From Alkanindiges illinoisensis DSM 15370 (GTDB taxonomy: Bacteria > Pseudomonadota > Gammaproteobacteria > Pseudomonadales > Moraxellaceae): a stretch of 32,000 nt of DNA. Shown piece by piece: positions 1-3,000 of the stretch. Positions within the stretch are counted from its first letter, which is position 1. Each line of letters begins with the position of its first letter. The stretch covers positions 280,064-312,063 of the forward strand of contig NZ_JHUX01000003.1 of the NCBI RefSeq assembly GCF_000619845.1, in the 5' to 3' direction. Position numbers: made by a program.

Positions 1-3000
1 ATTAAGCGGATAAAAGATAGAATTATGATTTTTGAAATAATAACTTAGCGGAATCAAACGGAATTATGCGGATTACAATTATTCTTTTCGAGCATGAGAA
101 GCATATTAATTGCAACCTTATGAAATTAAAAGATTATTTCATTGATGGTGTTGAAGATACCCGTTAGCGTACCCGTTTGGTGGGCAGTAGAATAAATAAA
201 GCCCCTTGGGATAGGGGCATTTTAACAGTTATAGCAGTCGGATTAAATAAACAATTACTCATCCGGTGTTTTTAGGCTCTCAACCACACGCTTGACATAT
301 GACGCATACCAGAATGTGGTTCGCTTGCCATCAGTATGCGGCTTTTCAATTTCCCCTAACTGGATGCGTTTATAGAATTTGGTCTTTTTGCACTTAAGCA
401 ATTCCATAAACTCTTTTGGAGTAATTCGGTAATCAATTTCTAAATTCTGTGCTGCACTCATCATTCACCTCTCAATGCCTAGACTGAGCAATAACTTGCC
501 TGTAGGCAGTCACTTGCTGCTCAAGTAAAACCAATGCCGCTTCTGCACCAAAATGTCCTGCAAGTTGTGAGTTCATAAAAGCAACTGTGCCCATGTATAG
601 TTGCGCGGTCTGTTGCTGGTCAGCCTTAATAGATTCAGCAAACTGTAAAATCATGTTTTGCATCATTGCTGCCAGTTCTTGCGGTGCCTGCTTTAAATCA
701 GTGCTAATTTCAATGCGCTTTTCCATCACTTCCTCCAATCCATCCAGTTGACCAGACTCCGCCGACGTGTATAACGCTGGCGCTTAATCGTAATGCGCCG
801 TTTCATGTCGGCTCCTGTGCTGCTTTAAGCACTTCAATAAATAAGCTTCCAGCAAAAGAATTTTCTACCGTGTAGTGCTCCAGCAAGAAATTAATCGCAT
901 CCTGTAGCTCTGCTGGTGCTGGAATTTTCTCTTTGGCACATTCACTTGCGCCGTGGATTGCCAACTTTTGCAAAGCGCCACAAGCTTTATAGAAAAGAAT
1001 TTCGCTCATCATCCAATCCTCTAAATTCCCGTATCGCCGCAGACGGGTGGCTGCACTCATGAACAATTCGGCTACGCATTACACCTTCCTGACTACTCTT
1101 TGCTTGCCTGCGCCAACAGGGGCGTGTGGTTAGAATCCCACTTTCATCATTTCCCGATACGTTACCCGGGGTACAAGTCACTTACCGTATGCTGTGACTG
1201 AGCCAGCTTGCCAACTTTAAAAGCTGGCTTCCTTGCTGTGCGGGGCGGTTAAATTCGCATTGGCATAACAACAACATTAAATTCAGAGCCACCAGCAGCA
1301 AAGATAGCTGATGCAGCATGGTTGCCATTGGTTCTTATTCCGGTAAGCTGTTTGCCCAGTATTTTTGCAATCTTGTGCAGGTCTATAAGATATTTGACGT
1401 TAATGATTGATTCGCTATCAGTAAGGTCATCAGGTTTTGGTATTACTCGCCGCCAGTCCGGATAGGCGCCATCAATTGGATTGATACCCATTTCAAACCA
1501 GTTGCAATCAGAGAACCAATGCTTGCCAGATTTTATAAGCGTGATCTGTTTATCCCGACCTCTCGAACGCAAGTAGTCTTTGTTGCTGAGAAGCATTTCA
1601 AAAACTTGGCGCGGGATGATGTCATTTACTACTTCATCATCAGCAAAGCCTTCATGCTCAATCTTGCAATAGGCAAGGCGGTGACCATCGGTTGATGCTA
1701 AGTTGCATTCACCATTTTGAATAACTACATTGATACCTGTTAAGTAGTACCGAACATCCAGAGTGGCAGCAGTAATCAGCAATGCTTTTGCTACCGAAAC
1801 TGGAATGTGTATTTTTTTATCATTCATCATATTTCCCTCGTTACGCTGCCATATCCAGCATGCGGTTAATTACATTCTGTGCATCGGCTTCGTTGTCAAA
1901 ATGACGTGACAGCACAAAACGCCAAGCTACTCCAAATGCGTTCTTATAAAACTCGTTGAATTCGGTTTGACCCATTGTTGCGAAGTTGATTGACTTAGGA
2001 CGTTTCTCTAAATCACCATTGGGCAGGCGGACTACATCAAAGTAACCGCACTCATTTTTAAGCCACTTGTGAATCTCTAATGTGCTGGCCGGAATAGGGT
2101 TAATCAGCTTGGCAGCACGACGATTGCTCAAGTCCTGCAAATAATCCTGCTGCAATGCCTGCGATTGCTCATCTGTCAGCTTGATGCCTTTACGCTGCAA
2201 GTAGGTGCAGAACGAAGCAGCCGTATTGACCTCAACACGATTAACAAGCCCGGTTTGCGGTTCCCAATAGTCCTTAACCAATCCAATCAAGCCGCCAAAA
2301 TACAGCTTGTGATGCTGTAAGCTGCGGTCATTGTTCTTGGGCTTAACGCACTCAGTCTTAACGGCCTGACCAATCTTGTAAGTCGCACGCATCAGGGCAT
2401 GATCATGCTCAGTAGCTGGAACCAGCGCATGGCCATTGCAGATCATCATTAGCTCTTGCATGGCTTAGTCCTCAACTCCGAAACACGATGATCAATACGC
2501 GCCATGTTTAGGTAGAGTGGCGTATAGTCAGGGTTCGGCTCATGGCTATATTTATGATTCATGATTGCCATTACGCCGCGCTTTACTAGCACAAGGTTTT
2601 CAAGGCTGCAATTGAGCTTATCCCCATCCTTAAATGCAATAATGTGACCTTTAGGTATAGCGCCGTTTACCTTTTCCCAAACATAATGGTGTTTTAAGAC
2701 CATACGTCGATGACCTTCAACTTTGGCATAAACATAGCCATCCCTATCTATTCGTTCATGTCCAACTGGCTTTGCGGTGGCTGGGATATTCCCTTTCTTG
2801 AAGGTAGACTTTGGACTGACTTGAAGGCCTTTCATGCCTTTATTCCAAGTTTTCATACCTTTTGCGAAGCAACCAGTACGGCCAGTTTTCCAGCCTTTGC
2901 GGGTACAAAGACCCTTGATCTGGTCATAAGTAAATGCAGTCCCAAATTGCTGATTAACCAGTGCTGTTAAAGCATGCCGCTCCATTTCCTTATGCTGTTC

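What the first reader, a model, noticed from the sequence alone, without database searches (positions are those of the whole stretch)
1249..1830. Phage-encoded half-size beta sliding clamp (DnaN domain II plus the C-terminal half of domain III)
The 193-aa ORF carries the hallmark DnaN motifs in the correct order: DVRYYLTG, STDGHRLA, DGAYPDWRRVIPK and the extreme C-terminal VVVMPMRI. From my recollection of E. coli DnaN, these are collinear with roughly residues 128-256 and 316-366. Domain I and about 60 residues of domain III are missing, and the upstream ORF is unrelated. This argues against a simple frameshifted full-length gene. A 1.5-domain clamp cannot build the canonical head-to-tail dimer ring. 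It could instead act as a clamp mimic or poison, heteromerise with host beta, sequester clamp-binding partners, or form a new ring stoichiometry for the phage replisome. It sits in the early-left operon near the recombination genes.
Basis: partly seen in the sequence, partly recalled or inferred. Interest (0 to 1): 0.8.

Follow-up and report, generated by a model that had tools for sequence, protein, structure and literature searches.

The report
Phage mini beta-clamp keeping only the docking pocket
A prophage gene encodes a half-size relative of the bacterial DNA sliding clamp that keeps the pocket where replication and repair proteins dock but has lost the parts that close the ring; it belongs to a widespread phage family that was noticed years ago and never studied.

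Summary
Window 1249-1830, on the minus strand, encodes a 193-aa protein. It matches the DnaN central domain (Pfam PF02767, E=4e-12) and the last ~50 residues of DnaN. An AlphaFold2 model (pLDDT 90) matches only beta clamps in the PDB.

It is not a decayed fragment. All 165 diverse relatives examined share the same two deletions, E. coli DnaN residues 1-~125 and 253-315. Relatives occur in T1-like, Bcep781-like and other phages, and PHROG 3007 covers the protein end to end.

Seventeen of the 18 residues that form the clamp-binding-motif pocket of E. coli beta are identical, against 28% identity overall. Half of the 20 most conserved family columns are pocket residues. Both halves of the ring-closing interface lie in the deleted parts.

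The best reading is a free-standing receptor for clamp-binding motifs that captures or redirects host replication and repair proteins. The main rival is a loader-independent oligomeric clamp, because basic residues on all three helices are kept.

Shorter phage polIII-beta homologues were already reported in 2011 and annotated as "fragment" in Bcep phage records. This gene is therefore a new member of a catalogued but uncharacterised family. Interest is moderate.

The parts
1249..1830 (-). Gene for the 193-aa short beta-clamp homologue (stop codon TAA at 1249-1251)
   Evidence: ORF listed. Matches: PF02767, full-length PHROG 3007, short-family HMM at 165 bits. AF2 model pLDDT 90, pTM 0.88.
1438..1818 (-). 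Residues 5-131: a complete DnaN domain II equivalent (beta-alpha-beta-beta-beta twice), aligned with E. coli ~126-249
1405..1437 (-). Residues 132-142 (KPDDLTDSESI): a short linker that replaces E. coli 253-315. That segment is the first half of domain III and holds Ile272, Leu273 and Glu298-304 of the dimer interface.
   Evidence: Occupancy is 0 at E. coli 253-300 and 304-315 in all 165 family representatives. Interface residues from PMC11139829.
1252..1404 (-). Residues 143-193: the last alpha-beta-beta-beta of DnaN domain III (E. coli 319-366), ending in the canonical MPMR(I/L) C-terminus
1735..1758 (-). DVRYYLTG: equivalents of pocket residues Arg152 and Leu155 (R27, L30)
1675..1695 (-). 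STDGHRL: equivalents of pocket residues Thr172, Gly174, His175, Arg176 and Leu177 (T47, G49, H50, R51, L52)
1438..1473 (-). DGAYPDWRRVIP: equivalents of pocket residues Pro242, Arg246 and Val247 (P124, R128, V129)
1381..1404 (-). INVKYLID: equivalents of subsite II residues Asn320 and Tyr323 (N144, Y147)
1252..1275 (-). VVVMPMRI: equivalents of pocket residues Val360, Met362, Pro363, Met364 and Arg365 (V187, M189, P190, M191, R192)
1835..1839 (-). GAGGG ribosome-binding site, 4 nt upstream of the ATG and just after the stop codon of the upstream gene
1841..2461 (-). Upstream neighbour in the same operon: a DUF1367 / NinB-Orf-like recombination mediator. It sits directly before the clamp gene in every contig that carries this exact protein.
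4249..5292 (-). Sak4-like (AAA_24) single-strand annealing protein, the head of the recombination module in the same leftward operon
201..218 (-). The only terminator-like hairpin on the minus strand downstream of the gene. It lies after the excisionase gene (255-464), so the clamp gene is inside one long leftward transcription unit.

Best explanation
The gene encodes a member of a large, conserved phage family of ~180-220-aa beta-clamp derivatives. The protein consists of DnaN domain II plus the half of domain III that, together with domain II, forms the clamp-binding-motif (CBM) pocket.

Shown here: the fold, the two family-wide deletions, the near-complete identity of the pocket residues, and the absence of both halves of the ring-closing interface.

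Inferred: the protein works as a free-standing receptor for QLxLF-type clamp-binding motifs. It is made early from the leftward recombination operon. It would bind host proteins that normally dock on the beta ring, such as the clamp-loader delta subunit, Pol III alpha/epsilon, Hda, MutS/MutL, Pol II/IV/V and RecB. It would thereby divert or recruit them in favour of phage replication and recombination, without being a canonical sliding ring itself.

This phage and the T1-like carriers have no DNA polymerase gene and must use host Pol III. A selective competitor or adaptor role is therefore more likely than a general block of Pol III.
For: - Homology and fold; AF2 model pLDDT 90 with three helices instead of four.
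- Pocket: 17 of 18 residues of subsites I and II, as listed in the beta-clamp review PMC11139829, are identical to E. coli. Overall identity is 48/170, giving Fisher p=6e-10.
- Family conservation: in 165 representatives, 10 of the 20 most conserved columns are pocket residues (p~1e-6). Most of the rest are sequence neighbours of pocket residues.
- Conserved short form: the top 150 hits among 1.84 billion cluster representatives are almost all 186-260 aa. All 165 representatives lack the same two regions.
- Distribution: 172 phage records cover at least 80% of the query. Many short viral models share the fold.
- Selection on this gene: 3 synonymous and 0 non-synonymous differences to the copy in related phages, while the adjacent gene differs at 185 of 621 nt.
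- The review states that monomeric beta (I272A/L273A) binds delta ~50-fold tighter than the dimer and cannot support processivity.
- RecB also docks in this pocket.
- Operon position among recombination genes.
- No DNA polymerase gene in the window or in T1-like phage C1.
Against: - No binding, oligomeric state or phenotype was tested.
- Pocket residues are also the best-conserved part of full-length DnaN and drive homology detection. Several of them (Gly, Pro) may be conserved for the fold alone.
- Basic residues on all three helices are kept. A purely soluble decoy would not need them.
- No conserved partner gene and no enrichment of terminal clamp-binding motifs was found in the phage neighbourhoods.
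- A strong decoy would hurt a phage that needs host Pol III and beta.
- The family also occurs in phages with their own PolA, where a processivity role is conceivable.
Confidence: 0.45

Rival explanations
1. It is a working but non-canonical DNA clamp. Protomers of three beta-alpha-beta-beta-beta units would pair through two-fold contacts. The result would be a C-shaped dimer (6 helices) or a closed tetramer (4 x 3 = 12 helices, as in beta2). This assembly would hold DNA on its basic inner face and tether host Pol III, or a phage PolA, through the pockets, without a dedicated clamp loader.
For: - Each of the three helices keeps semi-conserved basic positions: K15 is 80% K/R, R74 56%, K153 78% and K156 53%.
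- The pocket is intact.
- The family often sits in replication modules next to PolA, primase or helicase genes.
- It is found both in phages with and without a polymerase gene.
- The clamp fold has pseudo two-fold axes that make such symmetric pairings geometrically conceivable (inference from the known fold).
Against: - Both native interface elements are deleted.
- No oligomer model could be computed.
- The AF2 monomer is confident on its own.
- No natural tandem or fused forms were found.
- The edge strand shows no special conservation.
Confidence: 0.25
2. It is a poison subunit that pairs with host beta monomers through the normal dimer interface and breaks the host ring.
For: It is a close structural mimic of two-thirds of a beta protomer.
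Against: Domain I (Ile78, Phe106, Arg103, Arg105) and the domain III segment with Ile272, Leu273 and Glu298-304 are all absent, so neither side of the interface exists. The phage needs host beta for its own replication.
Confidence: 0.05
3. It is a non-functional remnant of a captured dnaN gene.
For: It scores below the TIGR00663 cut-off (64 against 137.65 bits). Older annotations call relatives a 'fragment', and the 2011 survey assumed such homologues to be dispensable.
Against: - The deletion boundaries are identical in 165 representatives that each stand for a separate 50%-identity cluster.
- Motifs are invariant.
- The fold is predicted with confidence.
- The ORF is intact, with an RBS, inside an operon.
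- Only synonymous differences separate the copies in mosaic relatives.
Confidence: 0.03
4. It is a RusA-like Holliday junction resolvase, as PHROG 3007 and many GenBank records call this family.
For: The label of PHROG 3007 and of many phage records.
Against: No RusA family appears in the Pfam scan, even at E<=10; only PF02767 does. The fold is a DNA clamp. The label is an annotation error.
Confidence: 0.01

Closest known systems
Bacterial beta sliding clamp DnaN (E. coli, PDB 1MMI/2POL)
   Same: Same fold for domain II and the last half of domain III (TM 0.73). 17 of 18 clamp-binding pocket residues are identical. The C-terminus is the canonical MPMR(L/I).
   Different: It lacks domain I and E. 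coli 253-315, and so both halves of the dimer interface. It has 193 aa against 366. It scores below the dnaN equivalog cut-off. It is phage-encoded in a recombination operon.
Short phage polIII-beta homologues (PHROG 3007; Bcep43/Bcep781 gp15, BcepNazgul gp21, AH2 gp20, T1-like phage C1 gp25; noted by Kazlauskas & Venclovas 2011)
   Same: Same architecture, same deletion boundaries and same conserved motifs. The window protein is a member of this family.
   Different: It is only ~30% identical to isolated-phage members. It sits in a temperate lambdoid prophage next to Sak4- and NinB-like genes. It belongs to the tail-less minority, whereas most members carry a 10-30-aa C-terminal tail. The 2011 paper described the short forms as covering domains II and III; here only half of domain III is present.
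Monomeric beta mutant I272A/L273A
   Same: It has a pocket without a closed ring. The review reports that this mutant still binds DNA, binds delta ~50-fold tighter than the dimer, and cannot tether Pol III for processive synthesis. This is the best experimental proxy for what a ring-less pocket module does.
   Different: It is an engineered full-length three-domain protein, not a natural 1.5-domain one.
E. coli beta* (UV-induced N-terminally shortened dnaN product; Livneh laboratory, 1996; cited from my own knowledge and not retrieved here)
   Same: A natural beta form without domain I that starts close to the same position.
   Different: beta* keeps the whole of domain III and was proposed to form a PCNA-like trimer. 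The phage protein lacks half of domain III.
Herpesvirus UL42 / UL44 processivity factors (mentioned in PMC3201878; details from my own knowledge)
   Same: Viral clamp-fold proteins that work without forming a closed ring and without a clamp loader. This is a functional analogy for the rival explanation.
   Different: They belong to the PCNA lineage, have two full domains and come from eukaryotic viruses. They are not among the top fold matches.

Membership tests
Beta sliding clamp DnaN (TIGR00663; PF00712+PF02767+PF02768) | Three clamp domains (~366 aa) with N-terminal, central and C-terminal Pfam domains | tested here: not met
   Only PF02767 is found. Domain I and E. coli 253-315 have no counterpart. 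The AF2 model has three helices, i.e. 1.5 domains.
Beta sliding clamp DnaN (TIGR00663; PF00712+PF02767+PF02768) | Score above the curated equivalog cut-off | tested here: not met
   64.2 bits against a cut-off of 137.65.
Beta sliding clamp DnaN (TIGR00663; PF00712+PF02767+PF02768) | DNA-clamp fold | tested here: met
   Foldseek against the PDB returns only beta clamps: E~1e-11, probability 1.0, TM 0.73 normalised to the query.
Beta sliding clamp DnaN (TIGR00663; PF00712+PF02767+PF02768) | Clamp-binding-motif pocket (subsites I and II) | tested here: met
   17 of 18 listed residues are identical. The exception is Val344, which is variable in full-length clamps too. Binding itself was not tested.
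Beta sliding clamp DnaN (TIGR00663; PF00712+PF02767+PF02768) | Head-to-tail dimer interface (Ile78, Phe106 with Ile272, Leu273; Arg/Lys-Glu ion pairs) | tested here: not met
   All of these residues lie in regions absent from the protein and from all 165 family representatives.
Beta sliding clamp DnaN (TIGR00663; PF00712+PF02767+PF02768) | Closed ring around DNA, loaded by the clamp loader, conferring processivity | not testable with these tools
Short phage polIII-beta homologues (PHROG 3007) | End-to-end match to the ~190-position family profile | tested here: met
   E=1.2e-29, residues 6-193 on profile positions 2-186 of 190. 165 bits against my own family HMM.
Short phage polIII-beta homologues (PHROG 3007) | Same two deletions relative to DnaN | tested here: met
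   Zero occupancy at E. coli 253-300 and 304-315 and across domain I (the N-terminal strand aligns at E. coli ~126; its placement on residues 1-6 is an alignment artefact), in all 165 representatives and in the query.
Short phage polIII-beta homologues (PHROG 3007) | Encoded by phages or prophages | tested here: met
   The window is a lambdoid siphovirus prophage. Relatives are in 186 phage records and 78 IMG/VR contigs.
Short phage polIII-beta homologues (PHROG 3007) | C-terminal tail with a P-x-W motif, often ending in Ala-Ala (majority form) | tested here: not met
   The protein ends at MPMRI. Only 5 of 153 scored representatives are tail-less.
RusA Holliday junction resolvase (the label carried by PHROG 3007) | RusA sequence family or fold | tested here: not met
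   No RusA hit at E<=10. The fold is a clamp. Bcep43 has a separate genuine RusA.
Known anti-phage defence proteins (PADLOC) | Match to any defence-system model | tested here: not met
   No match at E<=0.01.

The most novel reading that the evidence does not exclude
The 1.5-domain protein assembles through two-fold symmetric contacts into a loader-independent clamp. This would be either a C-shaped dimer or a D2 tetramer ring with 12 helices and docking pockets on both faces. Phages without a polymerase gene would use it to pull host Pol III onto their own DNA or recombination intermediates. That would be a fourth clamp stoichiometry, beside dimers, trimers and the herpesvirus open forms.
Probability: 0.2. 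Interest if true: 0.8.

Novelty: new member of a known kind. Interest (0 to 1): 0.5.

Why it matters
The beta-clamp pocket is the hub through which bacterial polymerases, mismatch repair, Hda, the clamp loader and RecBCD are coordinated, and it is an antibiotic target. A widespread phage family that has pared the clamp down to that pocket suggests phages use the pocket itself as a tool. It could serve as a decoy, an adaptor or a minimal clamp.

Showing which host proteins it captures would reveal a new route of host takeover. It could explain how polymerase-less phages such as T1-like and some lambdoid phages engage Pol III. It would also supply a small, soluble, natural pocket module for screening clamp inhibitors.

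A separate practical point is that the "RusA-like resolvase" label now spreading through phage annotations should be corrected.

Tried and rejected
- **Conserved partner gene.** I called and clustered ORFs around 74 short members in 30 clusters. No neighbour was universal. The most frequent were terminase (6/30), PolA (4/30) and primase, plus ParB-like and exonuclease genes.
- **Phage-encoded clamp-binding motifs.** There is one loose match in the whole window proteome (QIRLKL near the C-terminus of the 14842-15543 product); by my own rough estimate such a pattern would give a few chance matches in a proteome of this size. In the neighbourhoods, 5 terminal matches compare with ~2 in shuffles. 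Neither is informative.
- **Domain fusions.** Longer members show only PF02767. One 482-aa ORF has an unrelated C-terminal part that I did not verify.
- **Defence-system models.** None matched.
- **Shared P-x-W motif.** It occurs in the clamp tails and near the C-terminus of neighbouring phage PolA proteins. I judged this probably coincidental, because in PolA it lies just before the conserved 'PL.AEV' C-terminal strands. That reading rests on my own knowledge of family A polymerases.
- **Tail structure.** AF2 of a tailed member gave low confidence for the tail (pLDDT ~56-65), so its position is unknown.
- **Host identification.** There was no near match in phages or E. coli genomes. The genome-collection scan mostly returned genuine Aeromonas dnaN genes that share FPDWRRVIP. 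The flanking pabA gene is only 68% identical to E. coli.
- **Literature.** Nine full-text searches found no functional or structural study of the short family. The PDB holds no short-form structure.
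Full report
**What is there.** Window 1249-1830 holds a 193-aa ORF on the minus strand. It starts at an ATG that lies 4 nt after a GAGGG ribosome-binding site and 10 nt after the stop codon of the upstream gene.

The protein matches several DnaN models and structures:
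- The DnaN central domain, Pfam PF02767: E=4.4e-12, residues 16-125.
- The NCBI dnaN equivalog TIGR00663: E=1e-17, but 64 bits against a cut-off of 137.65.
- Solved beta clamps: E down to 1e-11. Domain II aligns strongly, and the last ~50 residues align weakly with the extreme C-terminus of the clamps.

An AlphaFold2 model built on 20 homologues is confident (pLDDT 90, pTM 0.88). Its order of elements is beta-alpha-beta-beta-beta, beta-alpha-beta-beta-beta, alpha-beta-beta-beta. That gives three helices rather than the four of two full clamp domains. Foldseek against the PDB returns only full-length beta clamps (E~1e-11, TM 0.73). The alignments span ~254 columns, which means a gap of ~60 residues.

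I recalled the E. coli DnaN sequence from memory and confirmed it as 100% identical to PDB entry 1MMI. Alignment to it places residues ~5-131 on E. coli ~126-252 and residues 143-193 on 319-366. Domain I and residues 253-315 have no counterpart.

**It is a family, not a wreck.**
- PHROG 3007, a 190-position profile, matches the protein end to end (E=1e-29).
- A tblastn search of 50,697 phage records finds 186 records, and 172 of them cover at least 80% of the query at ~30% identity. Most are ~45-kb Salmonella, Escherichia and Klebsiella siphoviruses. Others are Burkholderia Bcep43 and BcepC6B, Sodalis SO-1 and Aeromonas pIS4-A.
- A profile search of 1.84 billion cluster representatives gives 40,497 hits. 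The best 150 (E<=1e-41) are almost all 186-260 aa long. Full-length DnaN proteins score only ~1e-33 with a family profile, so the looser counts include true clamps.
- In an alignment of 165 short representatives with 15 full-length clamps, every short member lacks the same two stretches. This points to one origin and long retention of the short form.
- BFVD holds many short viral models with the same fold, including ones from Rhodococcus and Gordonia phages.
- No short form has a solved structure.

The exact 193-aa protein occurs on five metagenome contigs. In three of them the gene differs from the window by 3 nucleotides, all synonymous. The adjacent DUF1367 gene differs at 185 of 621 nucleotides and 58 residues. 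The clamp gene therefore moves as a well-preserved mosaic module.

**Context.** The window is a lambdoid siphovirus prophage. It carries CI and CII regulators, an O-like initiator, a DnaB helicase, NinI-like phosphatases, terminase, portal, capsid and tape-measure genes, and no DNA polymerase.

The gene lies in the leftward early operon. In order of transcription, the genes are:
1. Sak4-like AAA_24 annealing protein.
2. A PD-(D/E)XK-like protein.
3. An 80-aa protein.
4. An HNH endonuclease.
5. A DUF1367/NinB-Orf-like protein.
6. The short clamp.
7. Small ORFs.
8. An excisionase.

No terminator-like site occurs before 218-201.

Across 30 clusters of short members there is no universal neighbour. 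Recurrent neighbours are the terminase (6 clusters), a family A polymerase (4), primases, a ParB-like protein and an exonuclease. The family occurs in two kinds of phage:
- Phages with their own PolA, such as Bcep43 gp61.
- Phages without any polymerase gene, such as T1-like phage C1, which has helicases, a primase, Erf, ExoVIII and SSB only, and this window.

**What was kept and what was lost.** A recent beta-clamp review lists the pocket that binds the clamp-binding motifs of all known partners (PMC11139829):
- Subsite I: Arg152, Leu155, Thr172, Gly174, His175, Arg176, Leu177, Pro242, Arg246, Val247, Val360, Met362.
- Subsite II: His175, Asn320, Tyr323, Val344, Met362, Pro363, Met364, Arg365.

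In the window protein, 17 of these 18 residues are identical to E. coli. Identity over all aligned positions is 48 of 170 (Fisher p=6e-10). The one exception, Val344, is variable in full-length clamps too. Within the short family, 10 of the 20 most conserved columns are pocket residues (p~1e-6), and most of the others are their immediate neighbours.

The residues of the dimer interface are all in deleted regions. These are Ile78, Phe106, Lys74, Arg96, Arg103 and Arg105 on one side, and Ile272, Leu273 and Glu298-304 on the other. From the known clamp topology (my inference), the retained C-terminal piece is the half of domain III whose sheet continues that of domain II and lines the pocket. The deleted piece is the half that faces the next protomer.

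Two caveats apply. Pocket residues are the best-conserved part of DnaN in general. Some of them are glycines and prolines, which may be kept for the fold alone.

**How it most likely works.** The parsimonious reading is a free-standing receptor for clamp-binding motifs.
- The review reports that a monomeric beta mutant still binds DNA, binds the clamp-loader delta subunit ~50-fold more tightly than the ring, and cannot support processive synthesis. A ring-less pocket module should therefore be a good competitor for pocket ligands.
- The known ligands include replication, repair and regulatory proteins. According to a 2025 preprint, they also include RecB, whose DNA degradation activity suffers when the contact is lost.
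- This prophage and the T1-like carriers depend on host Pol III. I therefore favour selective diversion or recruitment of host factors over a general block of replication. This step is inference.

The main rival is a loader-independent oligomeric clamp. Each of the three helices keeps semi-conserved basic residues (80%, 56%, 78% and 53% K/R at four positions). A soluble decoy would not need them. Three helices per protomer would also give the canonical twelve in a tetramer.

Three other readings are disfavoured or refuted:
- Heteromerisation with host beta is disfavoured by the missing interface.
- A dead remnant is refuted by the family-wide conservation.
- The 'RusA-like resolvase' label is an annotation error.

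**Prior knowledge.** Kazlauskas and Venclovas (2011) found polIII-beta homologues in twelve phages. AH2 gp20 (209 aa) is annotated as a beta subunit. I found no functional or structural study in nine literature searches. The family is therefore known to exist but is uncharacterised, and this gene is a new, divergent member in a temperate phage.

This analysis adds four points:
- The architecture is 1.5 domains rather than 2.
- The pocket is selectively retained.
- Both interface halves are lost.
- The C-terminal tails have the features described below.

**Side observation on the family.** Of 153 representatives with a recognisable MPxR motif, 148 continue with a tail of 10-30 or more residues. 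In 116 of them a [AVL]-P-[AED]-[WF]-[AVLI] motif lies 8-12 residues downstream. In addition, 73 of 165 end in Ala-Ala, where ~2 are expected from composition. This ending resembles ssrA-type ClpX recognition signals (my own knowledge) and would fit a short-lived protein. AF2 places the tail of one such member with low confidence. The window protein and its T1-like relatives have no tail.

**Verdict.** The gene is a new member of a catalogued but unstudied phage family. Its most likely role is as a stand-alone docking pocket for clamp-binding proteins. The interest is moderate, and the hypotheses are clear and testable.

Noticed in passing
window 1249-1830; PHROG 3007; phage records such as NC_054651.1 gp25 and NC_005342.2 gp15: PHROG 3007 and many GenBank phage records label this clamp-fold family 'RusA-like Holliday junction resolvase'. 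The label is wrong.
   Followed up: yes
family representatives P0004-P0172 (not in the window protein): Most family members carry a C-terminal tail after the MPxR motif. It has a conserved [AVL]-P-[AED]-[WF]-[AVLI] motif 8-12 residues downstream, and 73 of 165 end in Ala-Ala (~2 expected). This resembles an ssrA/ClpX-type degron. AF2 gives the tail low confidence. The window protein is tail-less.
   Followed up: partly
window 1007-2461 versus L065-L067: There is a sharp mosaic boundary. The clamp gene differs by 3 synonymous nucleotides from the copy in related phage contigs, while the adjacent DUF1367 gene differs at 185 of 621 nt (58 residues).
   Followed up: yes
window 2449-3286: The HNH endonuclease gene (2449-3051) and the 80-aa gene (3044-3286, phrog_2044) are present here and in L068. 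They are absent from the otherwise collinear recombination modules of L065-L067. This looks like a mobile homing-endonuclease insertion.
   Followed up: partly
window 1-254; L068 3958-4866: L068 is 99.97% identical to window 85-4061 and then runs into a host pabA gene. The window keeps only the first five codons (MLLML) and then diverges. The attachment site is therefore at the 5' end of pabA, and no integrase gene lies next to the excisionase in this window. The pabA gene is only ~68% identical to E. coli, so the host is another, unidentified bacterium.
   Followed up: partly
window 12482-14875: Two NinI-like Ser/Thr phosphatase paralogues (12482-13270 and 14204-14875) are separated by an ORF with weak HNH endonuclease matches (13176-14111).
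   Followed up: no
L073, L109, L113, L118, L125, L139 (phage PolA genes near short clamps): The family A polymerases encoded near short clamps carry 'PP[AD]WA.GLPL.AE' close to their C-terminus. This resembles the P-x-W motif of the clamp tails (PDW/PDW in L073, PAW/PAW in L109). It is probably a coincidence, because the segment precedes conserved PolA C-terminal strands, but it was not excluded as a shared docking motif.
   Followed up: partly
window 14842-15543: This 233-aa product (phrog_6172, unknown function) has the only clamp-binding-motif-like sequence in the window proteome, QIRLKL, 10 residues from its C-terminus. A single match is not above chance.
   Followed up: partly
L058 5971-7419: A 482-aa ORF in a Telluria MAG joins a short clamp to an unrelated ~270-aa C-terminal region. 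I did not check whether this is a true fusion or a read-through of my simple ORF caller.
   Followed up: no
window 475-1066 and 5402-5815: Three ORFs of the leftward operon (88 aa, 87 aa and 137 aa) match no PHROG family and no Pfam family above threshold.
   Followed up: no
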